Assembly (NCBI GenBank): GCA_937926355.1
Contig: CALAZP010000190.1
Span: 40 to 64,039, forward strand
Length of the DNA: 64,000 nucleotides
Direction: 5' to 3'
Origin: an uncultured Saprospirales bacterium
Lineage (GTDB): Bacteria > Bacteroidota > Bacteroidia > Chitinophagales > Saprospiraceae
Under the pieces are notes generated by a model. The model ran no database searches. It was not told the DNA's origin and was given only the letters and a program-made list of their open reading frames with translations. Both the position numbers and the translations under genes were made by a program. Each line of letters begins with the position of its first letter. Position 1 is the first letter of the stretch. Positions 34,156 to 64,000 of the stretch are shown piece after piece.

Positions 34156-35715
34156 ATGGCTGACTTTAATACAAAATACATATTACCAGGTGATGATAAG
34201 GATACTATCATCAATAAGATAAATCACAATTTCTATCAGGTATTTTTTAATGGAGTTGGTGAGAAGGGTCCTGTTGGTAATGTGGGGCCTACAGGGATTA
34301 GAGGACAAGCTGGTAGGGACGGCATACCCGGTGCTACTGGAGAAAGAGCTGCTGAGTGGTTTTTCTCGTCTACTGAACCTATTGATTCTGTTTCACAGGA
34401 CGGCGATATCTGGATTAATATAGGGATAACCGGAGGACAGCAAGTTTACGTTTACACCTCGGGATCTTGGATTTACAGTGGGCAAACGCTTTTATCTTCT
34501 GGTGTATTTTCGACAATAACTGGTATTTCTGGTCCTGGTAATTCCACTTCAAGTAATGCCATTTATATTAATGCTAGCCAGGGAGATAAAACTTTTGTGC
34601 TATCAGACTCAATTGGTGCAACAGCATCCATGAATCCTAACTTTTCTAAAGTTATGGTTTCAACAGATGCCTCTCAAACTGCTGATTTTCCAATTTTTGG
34701 GTTTGCAAAGACATTTTTGCCACAGTCTAGTGGAAATATTGTAGAAATGAAATGGGGTGAGACGGGTAGCTCTTACAACCATAGCTGGACTTTTCCAGAT
34801 GAACTGAGGATGCAAAGTGGTCTTTCTTCGGCCTACTCTGCTACTGGAGGTACTATGAACTTAACCTCCCCCAGCGAAAGCGTGGCTGGCTCTTCCCAGA
34901 GTTTTACCAACTTCACTGCCGCGACCGGAACAAGCGGGGCTTTTGCATTTTCTACACCTTCCGTTTTAAGTTTTACTTCTTCTTTGGTTAATTTATCAGC
35001 ATCCTCCTTCTCTGTAACATTGTCAGCTCCTGGTGGGACTGGATATATTGCAGCCCCAGTTACCCCGTATGTTCCGTTGGTAAGTATCTCTGGATCTGGA
35101 TCTGGAATAAATGTTACAGCATCCTCTGAAACTTCCGATGAGCTGCTACAGATATTAAACACCACTGACCAGGATTTAATTAAATCCGGGAGAACAAATA
35201 AATTCGTATTTGGATCTGTTGGGGCAACAGGACTCAAAAAGGTCAAGGGAATTACTACTACCTCCCAAAATTTCTTATCTGACGGAACAGATTCATATGT
35301 ACTCTGTGGCAACCCGACAAATGATGTGTGTGTTATTACTCCGCCTCCTTCAGGTAGTCCAACTGCTAACGGAAAGGCTAATCGAGTAATGCTGTCCTTA
35401 GGCAGTAACTTTTCTTGGGCTAGTGAACTAGTGAATACTGGACAGAGCAGAACGTTTGATTTCTTTATGAATAGTTCTACATATTCCTTTGGTGGAATAA
35501 GAGTACTCCCTGCTTCTGGCCTTGGTTCTCCAACCAGAGTTTATATAGACGATAACGCTGCTGGCCCAACAGGATGCCAGCATATTAGAATTACTTTTTT
35601 CCCTTCGGGTGTCACTGAGAAGTTTCACTACGAAGCATTTTCTGATGGTAATTATAAATGTGGACAAATAACATACACGTTAGCAATAGCTGAAGGACCT
35701 CTTATAGTGATATGA
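34156..35715 (+). CDS. Collagen-like tail fibre protein (paralog 2)
   Basis: 10 G-X-Y triplets (aa 35-64, nt 34258-34347). G12-D13, N23, N25-F26, G35 and W68 are at identical positions to paralog 1. Confidence 0.75.
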   Translation: MADFNTKYILPGDDKDTIINKINHNFYQVFFNGVGEKGPVGNVGPTGIRGQAGRDGIPGATGERAAEWFFSSTEPIDSVSQDGDIWINIGITGGQQVYVYTSGSWIYSGQTLLSSGVFSTITGISGPGNSTSSNAIYINASQGDKTFVLSDSIGATASMNPNFSKVMVSTDASQTADFPIFGFAKTFLPQSSGNIVEMKWGETGSSYNHSWTFPDELRMQSGLSSAYSATGGTMNLTSPSESVAGSSQSFTNFTAATGTSGAFAFSTPSVLSFTSSLVNLSASSFSVTLSAPGGTGYIAAPVTPYVPLVSISGSGSGINVTASSETSDELLQILNTTDQDLIKSGRTNKFVFGSVGATGLKKVKGITTTSQNFLSDGTDSYVLCGNPTNDVCVITPPPSGSPTANGKANRVMLSLGSNFSWASELVNTGQSRTFDFFMNSSTYSFGGIRVLPASGLGSPTRVYIDDNAAGPTGCQHIRITFFPSGVTEKFHYEAFSDGNYKCGQITYTLAIAEGPLIVI

Positions 35716-51441: not shown

Positions 51442-53355
51442 ATGGCTGGGATAAATCACTTATATGACATTTACAACAAAAAAGGATCTGACTTTGTCAA
51501 TCAGCTTTTTAATCGTTATGTAACCATCAACGAAAAGATGGATGGCTCGGCTTTTTCTTTTGAAAGAGATAAGGAATCTGGAAATTTCCGGTTTTATAGG
51601 AGGGATCAAAGAAATCCAATAACTTTAGTGGACAGGACTCTCATGAAATATTACGAGAAGCCAATCCAGTATATCGAATCTCTTCCTCCAAACATACTTG
51701 AAAAAATACCTAGAGGATTGAGATTCGGGCTGGAATATTTTTCAAACACTAAACCTGTAGAGATCTCCTACGATAGATTGCCAAAGAATAACTTGATTCT
51801 TTCTTATATCCACAAGATGGGTACTGGAGGTAAGATAGAAAGCACTATTCAGGATAAGGGGGAATTAGACAATTGGGCAGATCTGATTGGGGTTGAAAGA
51901 CCACCAATTGTTTTTCAGGGAGTTCTAGACGAGGACCAGAAATCTGAACTTATGGAGTTTTTGAACACCCCGTTCAAGGATCTTGTCGAAAGATTCAAAA
52001 CTCAATCTTTTGTTAGGTTTGTTATTAAGACCCTGAACCCAGAGTTAACCAAAACTGCTCTCAACGATGACCTAGATAAGGACGTCGAGGGAATAGTTTT
52101 TAGGTTTGGCGAGCCCGATGGTGATAGTGATACCGTTTTAGCTAAAATGGTAGATCCAATATTCACCGAGATTGCTAAGCAAAAGTTTGCTGACAAAAAG
52201 AGCAAAAAGCCTTCTGATTTTCTAGGTATTACGCTGCTCGACGTAATGAATTTCATTTTGGAGAAAGATCTTTCCGAATTTGAAGTTGAAGGCGAGTCTG
52301 AGGACGAGAGATACATTTCCTTTATAGGAGACGTTTTTGTCAAGTTCCTTGATGAATACGAGGAAAAGTATAAGGGTACTGATTTCGAAGAACCAGATTA
52401 TCTAAAAAGAGAAGAATTTAGGTTAAACAAGGAAAAAATTAAGGATAGAAGAGTTCTTAAGTATGTTGAAAAAGACGACTCGTTCGAATCTCTATTCAAA
52501 CTCATTCTTAATTCCTTTAGAAAAATAAAAACCAGAGCTGGTGGAATAATCACAGCTGGTATGAAGGACCAAATGAATCTTTTGATCAAAGACATTAAGG
52601 ACTACATCAAAAAACCAGAGAAGAACGTAAACGAATCTAGGTTTATTAGCTTCGGTGAATTTAGGAAGGAGAACACCCCCTCTGTAGAATACCTACAGGA
52701 GGAGGATGATTCGGATACAAGTGATGATCCTTTTTTCTCATACCGTGAATTCATCAGCAAACTTGAGACTATTGATAACGAGGAGTTGCCAAACGAGGTA
52801 GAGATTCTTAAAGAGGACGATACCGAGGAAAGAAAGCCGGTAAATGTCATAATGGGTAGATTTCAGCCCTTCCACCAGGGGCACCTCAAGATGGCAAAGG
52901 ATCTTATGGAGAAAAACGATTTGCCTTCATTCGTTGTTGTAGTTTATCCTGGCCACAACAAGTCTGGAAAATCCCCATTTGATGAAGAATCTATCAAAAG
53001 ATACATGAATGCGATAGTTGCCAACAATGAAGAGATAGAAGGCTATGTTCTTGCTACTCGGGGACTTCTTGGTTCTGCCATTGCAAGACTAATAGATATG
53101 GGATATGATCCTAAGTTAATTGGTGCAGGCCCCGACCGAATAGATGACTACTCTAAGCAGATAGACTATGTTAAGATGTCTGATATAAAAGACAAAATAA
53201 GCGATGACCTAAGCATAGTAGAAACCCCAAGAGTAACGAGCGGTACCGAAGTTAGGCAAGCTATGAAAGACCAAGATTTTGCCAAGTTTAAAAAGATGGT
53301 TCCAAAAGAGGTCTCAAACCTCTATAATGACCTCATTACAAGCGTCAGGGACTGA
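51442..53355 (+). CDS. Fusion protein: N-terminal covalent nucleotidyltransferase (RNA/DNA ligase-like) domain plus C-terminal NMN adenylyltransferase-like (HxGH cytidylyltransferase fold) domain
   Basis: Ligase motifs: I INEKMDGS, III RFGLEYF, IV VEGIVFRF, V VLAKMVDP. C-terminal: IMGRFQPFHQGH and TSGTEVRQAM. Confidence 0.65.
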   Translation: MAGINHLYDIYNKKGSDFVNQLFNRYVTINEKMDGSAFSFERDKESGNFRFYRRDQRNPITLVDRTLMKYYEKPIQYIESLPPNILEKIPRGLRFGLEYFSNTKPVEISYDRLPKNNLILSYIHKMGTGGKIESTIQDKGELDNWADLIGVERPPIVFQGVLDEDQKSELMEFLNTPFKDLVERFKTQSFVRFVIKTLNPELTKTALNDDLDKDVEGIVFRFGEPDGDSDTVLAKMVDPIFTEIAKQKFADKKSKKPSDFLGITLLDVMNFILEKDLSEFEVEGESEDERYISFIGDVFVKFLDEYEEKYKGTDFEEPDYLKREEFRLNKEKIKDRRVLKYVEKDDSFESLFKLILNSFRKIKTRAGGIITAGMKDQMNLLIKDIKDYIKKPEKNVNESRFISFGEFRKENTPSVEYLQEEDDSDTSDDPFFSYREFISKLETIDNEELPNEVEILKEDDTEERKPVNVIMGRFQPFHQGHLKMAKDLMEKNDLPSFVVVVYPGHNKSGKSPFDEESIKRYMNAIVANNEEIEGYVLATRGLLGSAIARLIDMGYDPKLIGAGPDRIDDYSKQIDYVKMSDIKDKISDDLSIVETPRVTSGTEVRQAMKDQDFAKFKKMVPKEVSNLYNDLITSVRD

Positions 53356-53361
53356 TATATA
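53354..53361 (+). promoter_or_regulatory. Octamer GATATATA overlapping the upstream stop codon (candidate promoter element)
   Basis: Context ggacTGATATATAaaaa; 19 nt upstream of the GTG at 53381. Confidence 0.45.
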
Positions 53362-53380
53362 AAAAAATACAAATAAACCA

Positions 53381-53920
53381 GTGGATAAAAGAATACAGAG
53401 CTTCTCCGACTTCCTAAAGGCTTCTTCGATTAACGAGGGAGATGGATTTGGGACCTATCCTTTCTTATTAGTAAAGGATGGTGACATTTACAACTACCTT
53501 TTCCAATTAGAACTTGAGAATGGTTCTCAGAAAGGATTTATGTTGGTGGTTGGCAAATATTCTCAGTATGAGACAATGGAGGGACCTAAAAACTCTTACG
53601 CAGTTCTAAATATAAACGAGATAGCTCCTGAAATTATAGAAGATATTGCTATCAAGAAATCCGAAATACCCGATCTAAATGATGCTAAGTTTAATCTTAA
53701 GGACAATGTCCTAAGCAGATTTTTAGAGCAGATATCTAAGGCTTTATTAAATTATCTTGAGAAAAATCCAAAAGTAATTCGTATATTTGACGAAATGCAG
53801 GGTAATATGGATATCGAAAACTATGAAGAAATGGTAAAATCAGTTTTACTTTCCTTCTTAGGTCCAGAATGGGCAATCCAGGAAGGATCTCACAAGGGAA
53901 CATTCATAATCAGTAGATAA
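53381..53920 (+). CDS. Hypothetical protein with leader (M)DKRIQSFSDFLKASSINE
   Basis: GTG start; N-terminus paralogous to the leaders at 49589 and 58507. Confidence 0.5.
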   Translation: MDKRIQSFSDFLKASSINEGDGFGTYPFLLVKDGDIYNYLFQLELENGSQKGFMLVVGKYSQYETMEGPKNSYAVLNINEIAPEIIEDIAIKKSEIPDLNDAKFNLKDNVLSRFLEQISKALLNYLEKNPKVIRIFDEMQGNMDIENYEEMVKSVLLSFLGPEWAIQEGSHKGTFIISR

Positions 53921-53977: not shown

Positions 53978-54154
53978 ATGGAAAATTTCGATCGAATCAA
54001 AGAAGTTATGGAAGCTGCAGAAGCTGACGTAGCAAAGTTTGTTGAAAAAGGCAATAAGGCAGCTGGAACAAGAGTTCGCCAAGCCATGCAAGAAGTTAAG
54101 AAGCTTGCTCAACAAGTAAGGTTGGATGTTCAGGAGATAAAGAACAACTCTTAA
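53978..54154 (+). CDS. Histone H1-like / Hc1-like small basic DNA-binding protein (Bacteroidota-type), 58 aa
   Basis: My translation: MENFDRIKEVMEAAEADVAKFVEKGNKAAGTRVRQAMQEVKKLAQQVRLDVQEIKNNS*. The core KFVEKGNKAAG.R.R matches the family. Absent from the ORF track, which lists only an antisense ORF here. Confidence 0.6.
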   Translation: MENFDRIKEVMEAAEADVAKFVEKGNKAAGTRVRQAMQEVKKLAQQVRLDVQEIKNNS

Positions 54155-56476: not shown

Positions 56477-56833
56477 ATGAACAGAACAACTTTTTACAGT
56501 CCTCTAGAAATGATGGAAAGGATTTTCCACAACACAAATCCTGTTATTCAAAGTAGAAACTACTTTGTGGACGAGAGGGATGGAGAGTATGCTTTAGAAA
56601 TACCGGTCCCTGGTTTTTCTAAAAAAGACATCTCGGTTGATGTCGAAGGAAACTTTTTGGTCATAAGTGGTGAAGATAATGAATCATATTGGACAGATGA
56701 CTTCACGAAGAAATTCAAACTTCCCAATGAAGCTGATCCAGAATTGATTAAAGCGAAGATAGAAGACGGTGTACTTAAGGTTTCAGTGGGTAAGAAGAAA
56801 GAGTCGATGCCTAAGAAGATTAAAATCTCATAA
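56477..56833 (+). CDS. Small heat-shock protein (Hsp20/alpha-crystallin family)
   Basis: YALEIPVPGFSKKDISVDVEGNFLVISGE ... F.KKFKLPNEADPELIKAKIEDGVLKVSV. Confidence 0.85.
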   Translation: MNRTTFYSPLEMMERIFHNTNPVIQSRNYFVDERDGEYALEIPVPGFSKKDISVDVEGNFLVISGEDNESYWTDDFTKKFKLPNEADPELIKAKIEDGVLKVSVGKKKESMPKKIKIS

Positions 56834-56899: not shown

Positions 56900-57115
56900 A
56901 TGTCAAGGGAAAAAGAAATATTCGAAAGATTCGCAATTGAGATTGCACAAGAAATCATTAAGAAGGAAGAAAATCCAGACTATGAAATAATTCTGGATAG
57001 AAAGTCTGTTATAGGTAAACTTTCATCTATCATGGGACAAGAATATCCAGAAACAGCCTCTCAGTTTGATAAGAGAATAAATGATCACCTAAAAAGATTA
57101 AGGAGAAATCTATAA
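56900..57115 (+). CDS. Hypothetical protein, 71 aa
   Basis: Start moved to the ATG at 56900; the listed TTG at 56885 lies inside the terminator stem. Confidence 0.45.
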   Translation: MSREKEIFERFAIEIAQEIIKKEENPDYEIILDRKSVIGKLSSIMGQEYPETASQFDKRINDHLKRLRRNL

Positions 57116-57501
57116 TGGAAAGGCTTATACAGGAAGATTACTTAGATAGCCCTTGGAAGATGACCGTAATATGTATACTGCTAAACCAAACCACTAACCA
57201 GCAGGTAAGAAAAATTTTAGATTCCCTTTTTGATCTAATACAATCCCCAGAGAAATGCTCTGGATTGAACCCAGACCAGATCTATCCAGTAATTAAAGGA
57301 ACTGGCTTTGGAAACGTAAAATCTAGGAGGATAATCTCTATGAGTCAAAAATGGATCGACGGATTTAAAGACGTCCAAGAATTACCCGGGGTTGGAAAAT
57401 ACGCAAAGGAGTCCTGGGAAATTTTTGTGAATGGAAAAACAAATTTTACTCCAAGTGACAAAAAATTAAGGATGTACCTAGAGGGATTGAATAGTCTCTA
57501 A
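57115..57501 (+). CDS. HhH-GPD DNA glycosylase, MBD4 glycosylase-domain-like
   Basis: ICILLNQTTNQQV, ELPGVGKYAKESWEIF (HhH, compare MBD4 GIGKYGNDSYRIF), downstream PSDKKL candidate catalytic Asp. Confidence 0.6.
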   Translation: MERLIQEDYLDSPWKMTVICILLNQTTNQQVRKILDSLFDLIQSPEKCSGLNPDQIYPVIKGTGFGNVKSRRIISMSQKWIDGFKDVQELPGVGKYAKESWEIFVNGKTNFTPSDKKLRMYLEGLNSL

Positions 57502-58170
57502 TAGAGCTGGATGTGGTGGACAGCTCAATCTATCAATTCTTACATTGCTATGAGACCAAAGACCTTGACCCCCTAATAAAGCATTTTCTGACAGTTCAAA
57601 TCCACCAAAATCACCAAACTTCAGGATTTCTTTCTGAAGACCTCTTTTAAGATCTATTTCATATTTTTCGCTAAGGTATTTAAGTAAACCCTTTAGTGAT
57701 TCTATTTGAGCTTTTGAATAACTATGAAAATACTTACTGCCCCTGAAAGGTGATTCAAGCTCTGTAACTTGATTTTTACTTATCTTAACGTGACTTGATG
57801 TATAGAAATCTCCATCCTCTGTTTTTATAAGAGGACCGTAGTTACATATGTCGATGCCTATACTCTTTTGGTTTAGGAAGGTGTTATTTTTTGCTTTTAT
57901 GAATAGATGGTGTGACCACATAGATTCGTCAAAAGCTCTATAAACTACCCCATCATACTTTTTATCTTTCCCGTCTGGAGATATACCACCAATTACAAAT
58001 GCACTAGAGGATCTTATTTTGTTGGTAGAATTTTTCCTGTCTCTTCCCCGGTATTCAATCAGCCAATCGGGCCTATAATGTCCAGACGAATCCCTTAGGA
58101 AAATGGAATCCTTCGGGTGTGGTTGTTGATAATATGCACTTTCGGAAAGTGGATGATCAATATATTCCAA
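57478..58170 (-). CDS. Peptidoglycan amidase (Amidase_2/PGRP fold) endolysin
   Basis: SHHLFIKAKN..NQKSIGIDICNYG and LWSHSNV...RLSCPP (His/Cys Zn ligands). The first Zn-ligand position is ambiguous (IFLRDSSGH). Confidence 0.6.
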   Translation of the reverse strand: MEYIDHPLSESAYYQQPHPKDSIFLRDSSGHYRPDWLIEYRGRDRKNSTNKIRSSSAFVIGGISPDGKDKKYDGVVYRAFDESMWSHHLFIKAKNNTFLNQKSIGIDICNYGPLIKTEDGDFYTSSHVKISKNQVTELESPFRGSKYFHSYSKAQIESLKGLLKYLSEKYEIDLKRGLQKEILKFGDFGGFELSENALLGGQGLWSHSNVRIDRLSCPPHPALLETIQSL

Positions 58171-58180
58171 TCCTTGATAC

Positions 58181-58507
58181 TTATTTTTCTTCGGAGGTTT
58201 TGGCTGTTGGTGAAAGTTCCTCGTGTATTCTCTTTTTCAAATACTTGATAACATCCTTAGGTGCCTCTCCATTTTTAACCATATTCGTGAATTCCTCCTC
58301 CTCTGCTAACGTATCTAAATAGTTGTAAAGATCCGTACTTTGAAACATTGAATCCACTACCTGTGGGGTTTGTGTATAAGCGGGCCTATAGTTTCTTGAG
58401 TTAACATTATCCTTGTACCATTCACCAGGAACAACCACACTACCAGGTGCTGCTGAAATGTAATATTCATTAAGGAAATTCTCGAAACTTTTGATCCTGC
58501 TATCCAT
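58181..58507 (-). CDS. Hypothetical protein with leader MDSRIKSFENFLNE
   Basis: Start moved to Met13 of the listed ORF, because the octamer (58518-58525) lies inside the longer version. Leader is paralogous to 49589 and 53381. Confidence 0.5.
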   Translation of the reverse strand: MDSRIKSFENFLNEYYISAAPGSVVVPGEWYKDNVNSRNYRPAYTQTPQVVDSMFQSTDLYNYLDTLAEEEEFTNMVKNGEAPKDVIKYLKKRIHEELSPTAKTSEEK

Positions 58508-58517
58508 AAGTATGTTG

Positions 58518-58525
58518 TATATATC
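58518..58525 (-). promoter_or_regulatory. Octamer GATATATA on the minus strand (candidate promoter element)
   Basis: Minus strand reads aaaGATATATAcaac; 10 nt upstream of the ATG at 58507. Extended match to the 4007 copy (GATATATACAAC). Confidence 0.45.
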
Positions 58526-58567
58526 TTTAGCGATTTCCGCCAAAGGTGTAATCTCAAATTTTATTCC

Positions 58568-59980
58568 ATGATAGTAGACATTGAAAACAAAGGGACTTAT
58601 TTAAAAGTATCGTCTTTCTCCGAGGAGGGCGATTTAATTTTTGTAGATGTTCCTGTCCCAGAGGAGGAAAGGTTTATCTGGGAAAAATGCTCACCTTCGG
58701 ATAGAAGAAGGGCATCTGATTGGGAGTCTTGGGATGGAATGCCGGTTAGAAAAGTGAAGACCCAGAAGTATGACAAATACCGAATGGTTCAAATCTTGGA
58801 AGAAGCAGACCCAGAGCTTACTAAATCTCTTTGGGATTTCCAAATCCCGAAAAAGTACTTTGTGGATATTGAGGTTGAGATGACCGATGAGATGGGAGAT
58901 TCCCTAGATACCTCTAATGCCAAGAACAAGGTGCTTTCTATCGGTATTGCAACAGATAGGTGTAAATCAATAATTCTAGGGCTTGATCCACTTTCAGCCG
59001 AGGAGCAAGCGGACATTTACAAAAAGACCAACGAGTATCTTGAACCGATGGGTGATGAATGGTCTTTTAAATATCACCAGTTTGAATCTGAGTATGATAT
59101 GCTTTATACCTTCTTTAAGAAGTTGGCCCCTAAAATGCCATTGATAACTGGGTGGAACTGGTTTGGGTATGACTGGCCATATTTGGTGAATAGAGCTAAG
59201 AGACTTGGTATCGATCCAAAGGTAATTTCACCAGCTAACTGGCTTATTGGAAAGAACAATCTTCCTATGCATTTGCTAATGGTCGATTATCTTGAGATCT
59301 ATAAAAAATGGGATCGGACAATTAAGATCAAGGAGAGCAATAGATTAGACTATGTTGCAGAGAAGGCTACAGGGTTAAAGAAGATTGTATATGACGGATC
59401 TCTAAGGGACCTCTACCAGTCTGATTTCCCTAAGTTTATCCTTTACAACGTAATTGACTGTGCCCTGGTTCACTATATAGATGTTAAGTTAAAAACCCTC
59501 CTAACTTATTTCAAGATAGCTAATTTAAACAGGGTTGAAATCAGTAGGGCGCTTTCACCCGTATGGGCAACAGAGGTCATGATGCTCAAAAAGTTTTTGG
59601 AGAGGAATCAGGTCTTTGTCAATGAGAGGAAAGAAGAAAGCCATGTCAAATTCATTGGTGGGTATGTCAAAGAGCCTATCAAGGGACTTCACGAATGGGT
59701 TGCTTGTTATGACTTTGCTTCCCTATACCCAAACACCATTGTGCAATGGGGTATTTCTCCTGAGGTTTATAAAGGTAAGCTAGGAAGGGATATATCTGAA
59801 GCCAAAGAGGGATGGGTGAAAACATCCTCTACCGCACTCTTTGGTGGAGACGACGAAAGTCCAATTCTGAAGACAATAATTAAGGACTTATACTCAAAGA
59901 GGAAAGCAACAAAAAAGAGAATGCTTGAGTTGCAGATAGAAATTGACGGGTTGGAGAAACAATTGAAAAAATTAACATAG
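58568..59980 (+). CDS. gp43: Family-B DNA polymerase, N-terminal part (exonuclease domain, motif A and first fingers helix), T4 gp43-like; split gene
   Basis: ExoI FVDIEVE, ExoII ITGWNWFGYDWPYLVNRA, ExoIII YNVIDCALV, motif A YDFASLYPNTI. Stop about 50 aa later; no KxxxNSxYG or YGDTDS motif. Confidence 0.85.
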   Translation: MIVDIENKGTYLKVSSFSEEGDLIFVDVPVPEEERFIWEKCSPSDRRRASDWESWDGMPVRKVKTQKYDKYRMVQILEEADPELTKSLWDFQIPKKYFVDIEVEMTDEMGDSLDTSNAKNKVLSIGIATDRCKSIILGLDPLSAEEQADIYKKTNEYLEPMGDEWSFKYHQFESEYDMLYTFFKKLAPKMPLITGWNWFGYDWPYLVNRAKRLGIDPKVISPANWLIGKNNLPMHLLMVDYLEIYKKWDRTIKIKESNRLDYVAEKATGLKKIVYDGSLRDLYQSDFPKFILYNVIDCALVHYIDVKLKTLLTYFKIANLNRVEISRALSPVWATEVMMLKKFLERNQVFVNERKEESHVKFIGGYVKEPIKGLHEWVACYDFASLYPNTIVQWGISPEVYKGKLGRDISEAKEGWVKTSSTALFGGDDESPILKTIIKDLYSKRKATKKRMLELQIEIDGLEKQLKKLT

Positions 59981-60017
59981 AATTTTCCTAAAATCACCGC
60001 ACTTTAGGGACCCACTT

Positions 60018-60025
60018 GATATATA
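60018..60025 (+). promoter_or_regulatory. Intergenic octamer GATATATA (candidate promoter element)
   Basis: Context cacttGATATATAaaaa; 51 nt upstream of the ATG at 60077. Confidence 0.45.
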
Positions 60026-60076
60026 AAAAACCTAGAGACGGGAAGGGATTTTAAAAACTATTGCAAACAAACAAAT

Positions 60077-60544
60077 ATGGCAAATACAGACAATCAATGT
60101 TCAGACCTACAGATCAAAAATCTTTATCCCGAATCTAAAGATACTCTAGGTGACATTTTAAATCTTCAGGCAGAAACCCAGAGGAATGTTTACGGCTACA
60201 ACTTCGATGAAATGTCTCTAAGGGACCTAATGGAGTTTTGGCACATGAACAACCACGCACTGATCGACGAAATCCACGAAGCAACCGACGCACTAGGTGG
60301 CATCAAGGACGGCAACGGAAACGCTATATGGAAGAGATGGAAAAGTGCATACTCTACATATTCAGACAAATGTTTTTCCGATTTATCCGAATCCGACAAA
60401 ATGGAATGCAAGTTTGAGATTATAGATATGCTACATTTCTTCATGAACTATGCAGCTTCCATTGGAATGACTTCCCAAGAAATGTACAACATGTACATGA
60501 GCAAGAACGAGGAAAATCGTCGAAGACAGGCAAACAATTACTAA
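60077..60544 (+). CDS. All-alpha NTP pyrophosphohydrolase (MazG / dimeric dUTPase / T4 gp56 dCTPase-dUTPase class)
   Basis: IDEIHEATDAL (ExxE), IWKRWKSAY, KFEIIDMLHF (ExxD), C-terminal KNEENRRRQ. Confidence 0.65.
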   Translation: MANTDNQCSDLQIKNLYPESKDTLGDILNLQAETQRNVYGYNFDEMSLRDLMEFWHMNNHALIDEIHEATDALGGIKDGNGNAIWKRWKSAYSTYSDKCFSDLSESDKMECKFEIIDMLHFFMNYAASIGMTSQEMYNMYMSKNEENRRRQANNY

Positions 60545-60569
60545 ACTAAAAAAAACAAAGTATTAAATT

Positions 60570-61553
60570 ATGAAGGAGGACTATTCGCTACCGGAACCGA
60601 TTTTACAAGAAAATCCCAACAGATTCGTTATTTTTCCCATACAGCATCAAGAGATTTGGAAGATGTATAAGAATCAGGAAGCTTGTATCTGGACAGCAGA
60701 AGAGATTGACCTTTCGGCAGATATCGACGATTGGAGAAATAAGTTAAATGATAGTGAAAGACACTTTATTAAGCACGTGTTGGCATTCTTTGCTGCTTCG
60801 GACGGTATTGTGAATGAGAACTTAGCTGAAAACTTCGTCAGAGAGGTTCAATATTCGGAAGCTAAATTCTTTTATGGATTTCAAATTATGATGGAGAATA
60901 TCCACTCTGAAACCTACTCCCTCTTAATTGATACTTATATTTCGGATCCTGCTGAGAAAAATGTGCTTTTCAATGCAATTGAAACCATCCCAGCGGTGAA
61001 GAAAAAAGCCGAATGGGCTTTAAAATGGGTTGAATCTGAGCATTTCCAAGAGAGACTAGTTGCCTTCGCTGCAGTTGAGGGTATATTCTTCTCCGGCTCT
61101 TTTTGTTCAATCTTCTGGCTTAAAAAGCGTGGATTAATGCCAGGCTTAAGCTTCTCGAATGAACTTATTTCAAGAGACGAAGGGATGCACTGTGATTTTG
61201 CAGTTCTTTTGCATAATAATTATCTTGCTAACAAGGTTTCTGAAGAAAGAATTAGGGAAATCATTCTCAGTGCACTTGAGATTGAAAAAGAATTTATTAC
61301 AGAATCTTTGCCTGTTAAGCTAATTGGTATGAATCAAGATCTTATGAAGCAATATCTAGAGTTTGTTGCTGACAGATTGCTAGTAGATCTTGGATGTTCA
61401 AAGGTTTTCAATGCAGAAAATCCATTCGACTTTATGGCAAATATTTCTTTGCAAGGTAAAACTAACTTCTTTGAAAAAAGAGTTGGTGAATACCAAAAAG
61501 CAGGAGTGAAGAATTCCTCCGAAAATACGTTCGATATGGACGTAGACTTCTAA
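60570..61553 (+). CDS. nrdB: Ribonucleotide reductase class Ia small subunit
   Basis: [64 protein letters not shown]. Confidence 0.95.
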
Positions 61554-61569: not shown

Positions 61570-64000
61570 ATGTACGTAACTAAGAGGGACGGATCCAAAG
61601 AAGCGGTAAGATTTGATAAGGTTTCTAATCGCGTAAAAAAGATGACTTATGGCCTAAACAACGACTTTGTTGATTGGGTGGGTATTTCACAAAAGGTAAT
61701 CGCTGGAATATATGATGGCATTTCAACGGGAGAATTAGACAACCTAGCTGCTGAAACTGCAGCATCACTTATTCCAAGCCATCCAGATTATTCCATTCTG
61801 GCAGCAAGGATTGCCATTTCTAGATTGCACAAATCAACAAAGAAGAAATTTTCTGAGACCGTTGAGGATTTATATTCCTATATTGATCCTGAAACTAATA
61901 AGCCTGCAGGACTTATTGGAGATGAAACCTATGAGGTCGTAATGAAGAATAAGAACAAATTTGATTCTGCCATTATACATGATAGGGATTTCAACTTTGA
62001 ATATTTTGGATTCAAAACCCTTGAAAAAAGTTACCTCCTTAAAATGCATGGGATTCCAGCAGAAACCCCACAACACATGTACATGCGTGTTGCCGTAGGT
62101 ATCTGGGGAGATGATATTAAAAATGCTCTCAAAACATATGAGCTTCTCTCAACTCATATGATGACACATGCAACTCCAACCCTATTTAATTCTGGTACTA
62201 AAAAACCACAGCTATCTTCCTGTTTCCTTTTAACTATGCAGGAAGATTCTATCCCTGGAATCTACAAGACTCTTTCTGATGTTGCGATGATTTCTCAGAA
62301 TGCTGGTGGTATTGGTCTTGCTATCCACAACGTAAGATCAACGGGTTCTTATATCAGGGGTACAAACGGGAAATCCAATGGTATTGTACCAATGCTTAAA
62401 GTATTCAACGAAACTGCTAGATACGTTGATCAAGGTGGTGGTAAAAGAAAGGGATCCTTTGCTATCTATTTAGAACCATGGCACGCCGACGTTGAGGATT
62501 TCTTAGATCTGAGAAAGAACACAGGTAAGGAAGAAAGAAGAGCCAGAGACCTGTTCCTTGCTCTTTGGGTTTCTGACCTTTTCATGGAAAGGGTAGAAAA
62601 AGATGAAATGTGGTCTTTATTCTCTCCCTCTGAGGTACCTGGACTTCATGAAGTTTATGGGCAGAAGTTCAATGAAATGTACATAGCAGCTGAAGAGGCT
62701 GGGAAGGCAAAGAAAACCATTAAAGCGAGAGAACTCTGGGGAAAGATTATCGAGTCTCAAATTGAAACCGGAACACCCTACATCCTTTATAAAGACTCTG
62801 CTAATAGAAAGTCAAACCAGCAGAATTTAGGGACCATCAAATCTTCGAATTTATGCTGTGAGATCATTGAATACACAGACAGGGACGAACAAGCAGTTTG
62901 TAACTTGGCCTCTATCCCAGTTAACAAGTTCCTAAAGTCTACTGATGCAAGAACATCGAAGATAACTAGGGGTAAGTGTGAGGTCGATCATGATTATCTA
63001 TATGAAGTAGCATACCAAACTGCTGTAAACTTGAATAAAGTAATTGATGTAAATTTCTATCCTACTGTTGGGACCAGGAGGTCCAATATGAGACACCGCC
63101 CAATTGGTATTGGAATTCAGGGATTGGCTGATCTTTATGCAATGATGGGTATTCCATTTACATCTGACGAGGCAAGAAAAATTAACTCAGAATTATTTGA
63201 GACAATTTATTTTGCATCGATGACAGCTTCTAAAGATCTTGCTAAGAAATTTGGAGCTTATGAAACGTTTGAAGGCTCTCCATTAAGCGAGGGTAAATTC
63301 CAATATAACTTATGGCAGGTAAACGACGAGGATCTTTCTGGAAGATGGGATTGGAAAAAACTTAGGAAGGATGTTATGAAGCATGGAGTTAGAAACTCTC
63401 TTCTTCTTGCGCCTATGCCAACAGCTTCAACAGCTCAAATTATGGGTAACAACGAAGCATTTGAACCTTTTACCTCTAATATTTACACTAGAAGGACTCT
63501 AAGTGGCGAGTATGTTATAATCAATAAGCACCTAATTTCTGATCTGATTTCTCTCGGACTTTGGAATGAGGATATGAAGAATATGATCATTATCCATAAA
63601 GGCTCTGTACAGAATATTCCAAACATCCCTGATGACATCAAGGAGATCTATAAAACAGTTTGGGAGATCAAGCAGAAGGATCTCATCGAAATGTCTGCTG
63701 ACCGTGGTAAATTCATTTGCCAATCACAATCTCTAAACCTGTTTATAGAAGGAGTAAATGCTGCTAAACTTACTGCAGCACACTTCCATTCTTGGAAACT
63801 AGGACTTAAAACTGGAATGTACTACCTAAGAACAAAAGCTGCTGTGGATGCCCTTTCTGGCCTTGGTATAGATACGAGCAAATACAAAAAAGTCGAGGAG
63901 AACCCAACTCCAAAGGCAATTATGGTTGAGAAGAAAAATGTTGCTGCAAATGAAGACCTAAAAGCCCTGGCAGAACAAACTATGAACGATCTTTCTTGTA
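61570..64000 (+). CDS. nrdA: Ribonucleotide reductase class Ia large subunit (3' end beyond the window)
   Basis: My translation: [22 protein letters not shown] (ATP-cone), [49 protein letters not shown]. Frame is open to the window end; not in the ORF track. Confidence 0.95.

What the first reader, a model, noticed from the sequence alone, without database searches (positions are those of the whole stretch)
58568..60076. Split family-B DNA polymerase
The ORF contains ExoI-III and motif A (DFASLYPN). It then terminates after ...LYSKRKATKKRMLELQIEIDGLEKQLKKLT, within the fingers region. Motifs B (KxxxNSxYG) and C (YGDTDS) are absent here and from the next 4 kb, which hold a promoter-like octamer, the NTP pyrophosphatase, nrdB and nrdA. 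Split gp43 (43A/43B) is known in a few T4-like phages, and split PolB occurs in some archaea. Here the break lies after the first fingers helix, and the tail is coiled-coil-like, possibly a dimerisation handle for the missing half.
Basis: partly seen in the sequence, partly recalled or inferred. Interest (0 to 1): 0.65.

Follow-up and report, generated by a model that had tools for sequence, protein, structure and literature searches.

The report
Two-gene (fingertip-split) phage DNA polymerase
This large phage encodes its family-B DNA polymerase as two separate genes 16.8 kb apart, cut at the tip of the "fingers" domain; the arrangement is real and strongly conserved, but this kind of split is already known from T4-like phages and is annotated in related jumbo phages.

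Summary
ORF 58568..59980 (+, 470 aa) is the N-terminal half of a family-B DNA polymerase. It carries Exo I-III, motif A and the first fingers helix, and it stops cleanly. No motif B or C occurs in any frame of the 64 kb window.

The interpretation as a split PolB is supported. The window comes from contig ENA ERZ1644701 NODE_1_length_112443. That contig carries the missing half on the same strand, 16,820 nt downstream and about 12.8 kb past the window end. It is a 381 aa protein (P0246) with motif B (KLTMNSIYG), motif C (YGDTDS), a KKKY motif, the thumb and an LF-rich C-terminal tail.

The halves are complementary on Pfam DNA_pol_B (positions 16-140 and 146-451 of 453) and on PHROG 262 (109-489 and 492-840 of 856). 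There is no intein, no Rfam intron, and no useful read-through. The break lies between the two fingers helices, at the same alignment position as gp43A/gp43B of Aeromonas phage 44RR.

The 120 best homologues listed for each half are stand-alone (one N-side entry is a 310 aa partial). Both halves evolve at dN/dS of about 0.02. In relatives the halves lie 14-24 kb apart.

Sphingomonas phage PAU (gp105/gp110) and Chryseobacterium phage MA9V-1 share the split. PHROGs has profiles the length of each half.

Verdict: a real new member of a known kind, of modest interest.

The parts
58568..59980 (+). PolB N-terminal half (470 aa): N-terminal domain, 3'-5' exonuclease, first part of the palm with motif A, and the first fingers helix
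   Evidence: Pfam PF03104 plus PF00136 profile positions 16-140 of 453. PHROG 2062 (a 502-position profile) E 2e-70, and PHROG 262 positions 109-489 of 856. AlphaFold2 mean pLDDT 85. Best Foldseek matches are RB69 gp43, TM-score normalised to the query about 0.7. dN/dS is 0.013-0.025 against relatives. The partner gene is outside the window, at extrapolated coordinates 76800-77945 on the + strand.
58859..58879 (+). Exo I motif FVDIEVE (D100, E102)
   Evidence: Read from the sequence. D100, I101 and E102 are invariant in the alignment with 44RR gp43A, PAU gp105, MA9V-1 and LR756500.
59150..59182 (+). Exo II motif GWNWFGYDWPY (N197, D202)
   Evidence: G195, W196, N197, D202 and Y205 invariant.
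59444..59458 (+). Exo III motif YNVID (Y293, D297)
   Evidence: Y293 and D297 invariant.
59711..59734 (+). Polymerase motif A DFASLYPN (catalytic D382; Y387 aligns with the RB69 steric-gate tyrosine)
   Evidence: Aligned to RB69 'DLTSLYPS'. D382, L386, Y387 and P388 are invariant.
59864..59974 (+). First fingers helix (residues 433-469), carrying R445 and K449, the inferred counterparts of the RB69 triphosphate-binding R482 and K486. The protein ends at the fingertip.
   Evidence: The last element of the AlphaFold2 model is a single helix, 433-469. L441, Y442, R445 and K449 are invariant in 50 homologues. Residue 462 aligns with T4 gp43 residue 496. The protein ends at the same alignment columns as 44RR gp43A.
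59981..60076 (+). Non-coding spacer after the TAG stop; no PolB sequence in any frame
   Evidence: Three-frame translation. No terminator-like site was found in this spacer, and the promoter-like count in 58100-60700 is below the shuffled expectation (3 found, 7.1 expected).
60077..60544 (+). MazG/dUTPase_2-like NTP pyrophosphohydrolase, a conserved downstream neighbour of the N-half
   Evidence: Pfam PF08761. PHROG 173 E 4e-17. 36% identical (E 2e-32) to phage PAU gp106, which sits immediately after the PAU N-half gp105.
60570..61553 (+). nrdB (ribonucleotide reductase small subunit), the first of the genes lying between the two polymerase halves
   Evidence: Pfam PF00268, E 2e-113.
61570..64000 (+). 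nrdA (ribonucleotide reductase large subunit, 823 aa), running 41 nt past the window end
   Evidence: Gene call on the source contig, with ATP-cone, Ribonuc_red_lgN and Ribonuc_red_lgC domains.

Best explanation
The phage makes its replicative family-B DNA polymerase from two separately translated polypeptides that assemble non-covalently into one enzyme.

- The window's 470 aa protein supplies the N-terminal domain, the proofreading exonuclease, palm motif A (D382, Y387) and the first fingers helix (R445, K449).
- A 381 aa protein encoded 16.8 kb downstream on the same strand supplies the second fingers helix with motif B (K29, N33, Y36), palm motif C (D105, D107), the KKKY motif, the thumb, and a C-terminal LF-rich tail resembling the clamp-binding tail of T4/RB69 gp43.

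The cut is at the fingertip, between the two antiparallel fingers helices. The active site is therefore composite, and neither half should polymerise alone. Association is inferred to come from pairing of the two fingers helices and completion of the palm sheet.

Shown here: the gene structure, the complementarity of the halves, conservation, purifying selection, and the absence of intron or intein signatures. Inferred by analogy: complex formation and activity, from the T4-like gp43A/gp43B complex and from the engineered fingertip-split Pfu polymerase.
For: Partner gene:
- P0246 lies on the same contig and strand as the window's ORF, 16,820 nt downstream. Its sequence carries KLTMNSIYG and YGDTDS.

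Complementary coverage of one PolB:
- Pfam DNA_pol_B positions 16-140 in the N-half and 146-451 in the C-half, of 453.
- PHROG 262 positions 109-489 and 492-840 of 856.

Position of the break:
- N-half residue 462 aligns with T4 gp43 residue 496, and C-half residue 9 with T4 residue 540.
- C-half K29 aligns with RB69 K560.
- The termini align with those of Aeromonas phage 44RR gp43A (498 aa) and gp43B (391 aa).

Conservation:
- The 120 best N-half homologues are 454-480 aa, apart from one 310 aa partial entry.
- The 120 best C-half homologues are stand-alone proteins of 327-390 aa, plus one 568 aa protein that carries an intein. In total 1203 proteins score E <= 1e-30.
- In IMG/VR relatives the N-half ORFs are mostly 465-471 aa and the C-half ORFs 379-391 aa.
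- The halves lie on the same strand, 13.6-23.8 kb apart, in 63 locus pairs.

Selection:
- dN/dS is 0.013-0.025 for both halves.

Structure:
- The AlphaFold2 model of the N-half ends in one long helix (433-469). Segment 356-371, just upstream of motif A, has low confidence.

Other lineages with the same split:
- PAU gp105/gp110, MA9V-1, and LR756504, whose halves are 280 kb apart on opposite strands.

Literature:
- T4-like fingertip-split gp43 subunits co-purify and are active (PMC2988022).
- Pfu polymerase split at the fingertip forms a stable 1:1 complex with wild-type behaviour (PMC3061061).
Against: No protein-level or expression evidence exists for this phage, so complex formation, stoichiometry and activity are inferred. 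The tools could not predict a two-chain complex. The two genes are 16.8 kb apart with about 18 genes between them, so coupled translation, as in the adjacent T4-like cistrons, is impossible. How equimolar synthesis is achieved is unknown.
Confidence: 0.9

Rival explanations
1. The ORF is a sequencing or assembly artefact or a recent pseudogene: a frameshift or nonsense mutation truncated a normal polymerase gene.
For: A PolB ORF that stops in the fingers domain, with no continuation in the next 4 kb, is what a truncation would look like.
Against: The identical protein was read on 8 contigs, including a separate Logan assembly of run ERR1995205. All close homologues stop at the same place. dN/dS of about 0.02 is incompatible with decay. 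No PolB-like sequence follows the stop in any frame. An intact complementary half is present downstream.
Confidence: 0.01
2. The two halves are joined after transcription or translation, by a self-splicing or trans-splicing intron, a split intein, or translational bypassing, to give one polypeptide.
For: Relatives show that inteins do invade this gene. L209 has a split-intein-like break at motif C of its C-half, and several C-halves carry PF14890. Huge-phage polymerase genes are often interrupted by introns or endonuclease genes (PMC12363816).
Against: No Rfam family reached its gathering score in the window or around the C-half. The halves sum to a complete PolB with only a few profile positions between them. 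There is no intein-sized extension of roughly 100 aa on the N side and 35 aa on the C side. The N-half ends 21 residues after K449, and the C-half starts 28 residues before K29. About 18 independent genes fill the 16.8 kb between the halves. The N-half does not end in intein block residues, and the C-half does not begin with them.
Confidence: 0.03
3. The N-half works on its own as a stand-alone proofreading or repair exonuclease, and the C-half pairs with something else or is independent. The two are not obligate partners.
For: The exonuclease motifs are complete in the N-half. The genes are far apart, and in LR756504 they are on opposite strands 280 kb apart.
Against: Motif A and the triphosphate-binding R445 and K449 are invariant in the N-half, although they are useless without motifs B and C. 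Both halves co-occur in every relative where enough sequence was available, and they evolve at the same low dN/dS. No second PolB palm or thumb was found in the window or in the neighbouring loci.
Confidence: 0.05

Closest known systems
Bicistronic gp43A/gp43B DNA polymerase of T4-related phages (Aeromonas phages 44RR, 25, 31, 65; Acinetobacter phage 133; Petrov et al. 2006 and 2010, as summarised in PMC3061061 and PMC2988022)
   Same: It is a family-B replicase cut at the fingertip between the two fingers helices. The subunit sizes are nearly the same (498 + 391 aa in 44RR, 470 + 381 aa here). The termini fall in the same alignment columns. No intein is involved. The C-terminal tail has a similar LF-rich motif.
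   Different: The T4-like cistrons are 2 bp to 3 kb apart (49 nt in 44RR). Here they are 16.8 kb apart with about 18 genes between them, so translational coupling is impossible. Sequence identity to 44RR is only 22% for the N-half and 27% for the C-half, so a common origin of the split is not established. The fingertip here is much shorter: about 16 residues replace about 43 in T4.
Sphingomonas phage PAU gp105/gp110 and Chryseobacterium phage MA9V-1 (MA9V1_135/138); PHROG families 2062 and 1918
   Same: The split is at the same position, and the lineage is closer (26-28% identity for the N-half, 25-31% for the C-half). The N-half is followed by a homologous dUTPase/MazG-like gene (36% identity, E 2e-32). 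The C-half is preceded by a gene of about 250-270 aa that in PAU was assigned as a gp45-like clamp (PMC4889955; weak similarity, E 0.002). Both halves are annotated as DNA polymerase in GenBank.
   Different: In PAU and MA9V-1 the halves are only about 2.2-2.4 kb apart (four and two intervening genes). In this clade the interval has grown to 14-24 kb and holds nrdAB, adenylate kinase, both topoisomerase II subunits, UvdE, DnaJ and others.
Engineered fingertip-split Pfu DNA polymerase (Hansen et al. 2010, PMC3061061)
   Same: It is a family-B enzyme cut near the fingertip. The fragments reconstitute a stable 1:1 complex with wild-type chromatography, kinetics and PCR performance. This shows directly that the fold tolerates this break.
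   Different: It is an artificial archaeal enzyme, cut within the first helix rather than after it. Combined with Q484R it broadened tolerance to gamma-phosphate-modified dNTPs, a property untested for any natural split enzyme.
PhiKZ (chimallivirus) DNAP-N/DNAP-C split polymerase (PMC13648687)
   Same: It is a jumbo-phage family-B polymerase encoded by two distant genes that form a stable 1:1 complex with a composite active site (motif A on one chain, motif C on the other).
   Different: The PhiKZ break lies in a large palm-insertion domain, after motif A and before the fingers, so both fingers helices are on DNAP-C. The PhiKZ subunits are far larger (638 + 731 aa), and a clamp-derived Rhc subunit is used. 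Here the break is inside the fingers and there is no palm insertion.
Methanothermobacter thermautotrophicus split PolB (as cited in PMC3061061)
   Same: It is a natural two-gene family-B polymerase with widely separated genes (85 kb).
   Different: The split is in the palm, about 83 residues C-terminal to the Pfu fingertip site. The lineage is archaeal.

Membership tests
Family-B DNA polymerase (PolB; Pfam PF03104 + PF00136) | 3'-5' exonuclease motifs Exo I (DxE), Exo II (Nx2-3F/YD) and Exo III (Yx3D) | tested here: met
   FVDIEVE, GWNWFGYDWPY and YNVID are present in the N-half and invariant in alignment A2. PF03104 matches at E 1e-9.
Family-B DNA polymerase (PolB; Pfam PF03104 + PF00136) | Polymerase motif A (DxxSLYPS) | tested here: met
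   DFASLYPN at 59711-59734, aligned to RB69 DLTSLYPS.
Family-B DNA polymerase (PolB; Pfam PF03104 + PF00136) | Motif B (KxxxNSxYG) and motif C (YGDTDS) | tested here: met
   Both are absent from the window. Both are present in the partner protein P0246 on the same contig: KLTMNSIYG and VVYGDTDS. PF00136 positions 146-451.
Fingertip-split PolB (T4-like gp43A/gp43B type) | Two separate ORFs, each with its own start and stop, that together cover one PolB without overlap or an extra domain | tested here: met
   Pfam positions 16-140 plus 146-451 of 453. PHROG 262 positions 109-489 plus 492-840 of 856.
Fingertip-split PolB (T4-like gp43A/gp43B type) | The break lies between the two antiparallel fingers helices: after the R/K helix and before the motif B helix | tested here: met
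   R445 and K449 are in the N-half, and K29 (RB69 K560) is in the C-half. T4 residues 497-539 are bridged by the two termini. The termini are co-linear with 44RR gp43A/gp43B. The terminal helix 433-469 is predicted by AlphaFold2.
Fingertip-split PolB (T4-like gp43A/gp43B type) | Adjacent cistrons (2 bp to 3 kb apart) | tested here: not met
   The halves are 16,820 nt apart on the source contig and 13.6-23.8 kb apart in relatives. This is a difference in gene organisation, not in the protein.
Fingertip-split PolB (T4-like gp43A/gp43B type) | The subunits form a complex with polymerase activity | not testable with these tools
   Only analogy is available: phage 25 gp43A/B co-purify and are active (PMC2988022), and split Pfu forms a 1:1 complex (PMC3061061). 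The prediction tool handles single chains only.
PhiKZ-type split PolB (DNAP-N/DNAP-C) | The split lies inside a palm-insertion domain after motif A, with both fingers helices on the C-terminal subunit | tested here: not met
   The first fingers helix is on the N-half. There is no large insertion: 470 + 381 aa, against 638 + 731 aa in PhiKZ (PMC13648687).
Split-intein ('fractured') gene | An N-intein at the C-terminus of the first product and a C-intein (ending in HN followed by S/T/C) at the N-terminus of the second | tested here: not met
   No intein family matched either half, and there are no spare residues. By contrast, the relative in L209 does show such a pattern at motif C.
Intron-interrupted gene (group I or II) | A structured intron RNA between the exons | tested here: not met
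   No Rfam match reached gathering threshold in the window or in L242. The interval is filled with protein-coding genes.

The most novel reading that the evidence does not exclude
The fingertip break may be an adaptation rather than a neutral scar. Opening the fingers tip next to the gamma-phosphate pocket could relax nucleotide selection, as it did in split Pfu. That would let these jumbo phages polymerise non-canonical or hypermodified dNTPs. In line with this idea, a MazG/dUTPase-like NTP pyrophosphohydrolase gene sits immediately after the N-half in lineages as distant as phage PAU (whose DNA is heavily modified) and this phage. Unlinking the two genes could also allow separate regulation of the exonuclease-bearing and thumb-bearing subunits.
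Probability: 0.08. Interest if true: 0.6.

Novelty: new member of a known kind. Interest (0 to 1): 0.3.

Why it matters
For annotation, the case matters because half-length PolB ORFs in jumbo and huge phages should not be called pseudogenes or truncated genes. The partner half can lie 14 kb to 280 kb away, so it may fall outside any window or contig under inspection.

For biology, it extends the fingertip split, previously described in the papers found here only for a handful of T4-like phages, to a very large and abundant environmental phage clade. More than 1200 stand-alone C-halves score E <= 1e-30, on contigs up to about 430 kb. Across that clade the split has stayed under strong purifying selection even though the two genes have drifted far apart.

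That persistence underlines how modular the family-B fold is. It also provides many natural sequences for engineering split polymerases. It does not reveal a new mechanism.

Tried and rejected
Searches for the C-half that failed before it was found:
1. In the window, regex and tblastn found nothing.
2. Within 10 kb either side of the N-half, tblastn found nothing on the source contig or in 80 IMG/VR relatives.
3. A profile of three known C-halves searched against the protein database returned 120 stand-alone C-halves, none on the source contig.
4. A pattern scan of IMG/VR with that profile returned no contig shared with the N-half list.
6. Look-ups of P0130, P0121, P0128 and P0245 landed on other strains.

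What worked was walking with the partial topoisomerase II protein, then a cluster-member look-up, then P0246.

Explanations rejected:
- Assembly error or pseudogene.
- Intron.
- Intein or split intein.
- TAG recoding or read-through.

Other dead ends:
- A phmmer search of the PDB with only the last 92 residues of the N-half gave no informative hits, because the query is a short helical segment.
- Petrov et al. 2010 could not be fetched, so its content is cited second-hand through PMC3061061 and PMC2988022.
- PHROGs and Pfam did not recognise the 253 aa gene upstream of the C-half. Its assignment as a clamp rests only on position and a weak match to PAU gp109.
Full report
**1. The observation**

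The window carries an ORF at 58568..59980 (+ strand, ATG to TAG, 470 aa). Pfam assigns the family-B exonuclease domain to residues 102-215. It assigns the polymerase domain to residues 336-454, but that match covers only profile positions 16-140 of 453.

The motifs can be read directly from the sequence:
- Exo I, FVDIEVE
- Exo II, GWNWFGYDWPY
- Exo III, YNVID
- motif A, DFASLYPN

These motifs are conserved in alignments with other phage PolBs. The protein ends ...LYSKRKATKKRMLELQIEIDGLEKQLKKLT*.

The second half is not in the window. A six-frame regex search found no DTDS-type motif C and no uninterrupted motif B. tblastn with a genuine C-terminal half found nothing better than E = 1.3.

- a dUTPase_2/MazG-like NTP pyrophosphohydrolase at 60077-60544;
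- nrdB at 60570-61553;
- nrdA from 61570, running past the window end.

**2. The stop is real**

The identical 470 aa protein was read on 8 contigs from public assemblies. The window's own source is ENA ERZ1644701 NODE_1_length_112443; a separate Logan assembly of run ERR1995205 also carries it. L004, cut from the source contig, matches the window exactly over their 15,433-nt overlap.

The 120 best homologue clusters (56-99% identity) are 454-480 aa, apart from one 310 aa partial entry. In 80 IMG/VR relatives the ORF stops within a few residues of the same point, mostly at 465-471 aa.

Reading through the TAG adds only eight codons before another TAG and then a TGA. No frame downstream encodes PolB sequence.

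**3. The missing half**

The closest records in the phage collection were uncultured huge phages (LR7565xx), the Lak phages, Sphingomonas phage PAU and Chryseobacterium phage MA9V-1.

In PAU the homologue gp105 (487 aa) is followed by a dUTPase, three small genes, and gp110 (404 aa). gp110 contains KLSANSLYG and YGDTDS. MA9V-1 has the same two-gene arrangement about 2.2 kb apart. In LR756504 the halves are 280 kb apart on opposite strands.

In this phage's clade the C-half is not within 10 kb of the N-half. I walked downstream using the partial topoisomerase II gene at the end of L004. That found a C-half in about 50 related IMG/VR loci, always on the same strand.

The closest strain is IMGVR_UViG_3300017989_000120, 96% identical in DNA. 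Its C-half is a 381 aa ORF. The 90% cluster of that protein contains P0246. P0246 is encoded on the window's own contig, NODE_1_length_112443, at record positions 35536..34391. The N-half is at 53768..52356 on the same strand.

The two genes are therefore 16,820 nt apart. In extrapolated window coordinates the C-half lies at about 76800-77945, which is 12.8 kb beyond the window end.

The interval holds the NTP pyrophosphohydrolase, nrdB, nrdA, adenylate kinase, a DUF2452 protein, a glycosyltransferase, both topoisomerase II subunits, UvdE, DnaJ and several unknown genes.

**4. The halves make one polymerase**

P0246 matches Pfam DNA_pol_B positions 146-451 of 453, against 16-140 for the N-half. 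On the full-length PHROG 262 profile the N-half covers positions 109-489 and the C-half 492-840 of 856.

PHROGs also has profiles the length of each half, and each half matches one of them: phrog_2062 (502 positions) and phrog_1918 (382 positions).

The break can be placed against solved structures:
- N-half residue 462 aligns with T4 gp43 residue 496, and C-half residue 9 with T4 residue 540.
- C-half K29 aligns with RB69 K560 of motif B.
- R445 and K449 are invariant in 50 homologues. They have the spacing and context of RB69 R482 and K486, the triphosphate ligands named in PMC3061061.

The cut therefore falls between the two antiparallel fingers helices, at the fingertip. About 16 terminal residues stand in place of about 43 residues in T4.

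AlphaFold2 models the N-half at mean pLDDT 85, and the last element is a single 37-residue helix (433-469). Segment 356-371, just upstream of motif A, has low confidence. This is the stretch I would expect to need strands from the other half, but that reading is an inference. Foldseek places the model on RB69 gp43, with a query-normalised TM-score of about 0.7.

**5. Rivals excluded**

- *Intron.* No Rfam family reaches its gathering score in the window or around the C-half.
- *Intein.* No intein family matches either half, and there are no spare residues that could be a split intein.
- *Pseudogene.* dN/dS against relatives is 0.013-0.025 for both halves.
- *Independent function of the N-half.* This cannot be excluded formally. 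It is unlikely, because motif A, R445 and K449 are invariant and the halves co-occur wherever enough sequence was available.

**6. Mechanism**

The most likely mechanism is a heterodimeric polymerase with a composite active site.

- The N-half contributes D382 and Y387 (motif A) and R445 and K449.
- The C-half contributes K29, N33 and Y36 (motif B) and D105 and D107 (motif C).

The subunits would be held together by pairing of the two fingers helices and by completion of the palm. This step is inferred, and three precedents support it:
- gp43A and gp43B of Aeromonas phage 25 co-purify and are active (PMC2988022).
- Pfu polymerase split at the fingertip reconstitutes a 1:1 complex that is indistinguishable from wild type (PMC3061061).
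- The separately split PhiKZ enzyme is a stable 1:1 complex (PMC13648687).

The C-half ends ...SPNLFMINTLF, which aligns with the ...NNLFDMFDI tail of 44RR gp43B. From my own knowledge of RB69 and T4 gp43, that tail binds the sliding clamp.

The 253 aa gene immediately upstream of the C-half occupies the position of PAU gp109, which was assigned as a gp45-like clamp (PMC4889955). It resembles gp109 only weakly (E 0.002), so the clamp assignment is tentative.

**7. Comparison with known cases**

The break is at the same structural site as in the T4-like bicistronic gp43 genes. The termini of 44RR gp43A (498 aa) and gp43B (391 aa) fall in the same alignment columns.

The differences are these:
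- The gene spacing is 16.8 kb here, and 13.6-23.8 kb in 63 related locus pairs. In T4-like phages it is 2 bp to 3 kb.
- The fingertip is shorter.
- The lineage is different.

The PAU and MA9V-1 genes are closer relatives with the same cut. They share a homologous NTP pyrophosphohydrolase gene directly after the N-half (36% identity). This suggests an ancestral compact arrangement of N-half, NTP pyrophosphohydrolase, a few genes, clamp and C-half, later expanded by gene insertion. That history is an inference.

The PhiKZ split (in a palm insertion) and the Methanothermobacter split (in the palm) are at other sites.

**8. Novelty and verdict**

Fingertip-split PolBs are in the literature. Both halves are annotated as polymerase in PAU and MA9V-1. 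PHROGs carries profiles the length of each half.

Two things may not have been stated explicitly in the papers I could search:
- the scale of the split: 454 N-half and 1203 C-half database proteins at the thresholds used, on contigs up to about 430 kb;
- its stability despite wide separation of the genes.

Interest is modest, at 0.3. The main practical lesson is for annotation.

Noticed in passing
L209 17837-20672 (IMGVR_UViG_3300027963_000042): In this relative the PolB C-half is broken again, right after motif C. A 234 aa ORF ends with ...VIYGDTDS plus an extension of about 125 aa. A free-standing 383 aa ORF, possibly an endonuclease, follows. A 326 aa ORF then starts with about 52 aa ending ...DILVHN, followed by SNYVTFQEVV. 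This looks like a split intein with an intervening homing-endonuclease gene, so that phage encodes PolB in three genes. Other C-halves in the database carry PF14890 Intein_splicing (P0055, P0078, P0093, P0182).
   Followed up: partly
LR756504.1: N-half at 255869-257332 (+), C-half at 538055-539125 (-); L006: In this 636 kb uncultured huge phage the two polymerase halves are about 280 kb apart on opposite strands. This is the most extreme separation seen here.
   Followed up: partly
L242 735-1496 (source contig, immediately upstream of the C-half; outside the window): A 253 aa protein with no Pfam or PHROG match sits directly before the C-half in all relatives examined. It is weakly similar (E 0.002) to PAU gp109, which the literature assigns as a gp45-like sliding clamp. 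It is a likely clamp gene, but this is unproven.
   Followed up: partly
window 60077-60544: The MazG/dUTPase_2-like NTP pyrophosphohydrolase directly after the N-half is homologous to PAU gp106 (36% identity), which holds the same position. The linkage between the N-half and this gene is therefore conserved across distant lineages.
   Followed up: yes
L004 20086 onwards (extrapolated window position about 68653) and L229 852-2630 and 6755-8128: Topoisomerase II is also encoded as separate large (592 aa) and medium (457 aa) subunits about 4 kb apart, with UvdE, a DnaJ-like chaperone and small ORFs between them. This T4-like arrangement lies inside the interval that separates the polymerase halves.
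   Followed up: no
window 53978-54154, 56477-56833, 57115-57501, 57478-58170 (-): Just upstream of the polymerase gene the phage encodes an Hc1 histone-like protein (PF07432), an HSP20 small heat-shock protein, an HhH-GPD base-excision glycosylase, and, convergent with the glycosylase and overlapping it by 24 nt, an Amidase_2 (probable endolysin) on the minus strand.
   Followed up: no
whole window and its source contig: The window is the first 64 kb of a 112 kb contig. Identical or near-identical polymerase halves occur on contigs up to 168 kb, and relatives at about 60-75% identity on contigs of 200-434 kb. The phage is therefore probably a jumbo or huge phage, and the 112 kb contig is incomplete. 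The window also contains very large ORFs of 1842, 1343, 1220 and 1184 aa.
   Followed up: no
window 59633-59680 (N-half residues 356-371): In the AlphaFold2 model of the N-half this segment before motif A has pLDDT below 50, while the rest of the protein is confident. It may need the C-half to fold.
   Followed up: no
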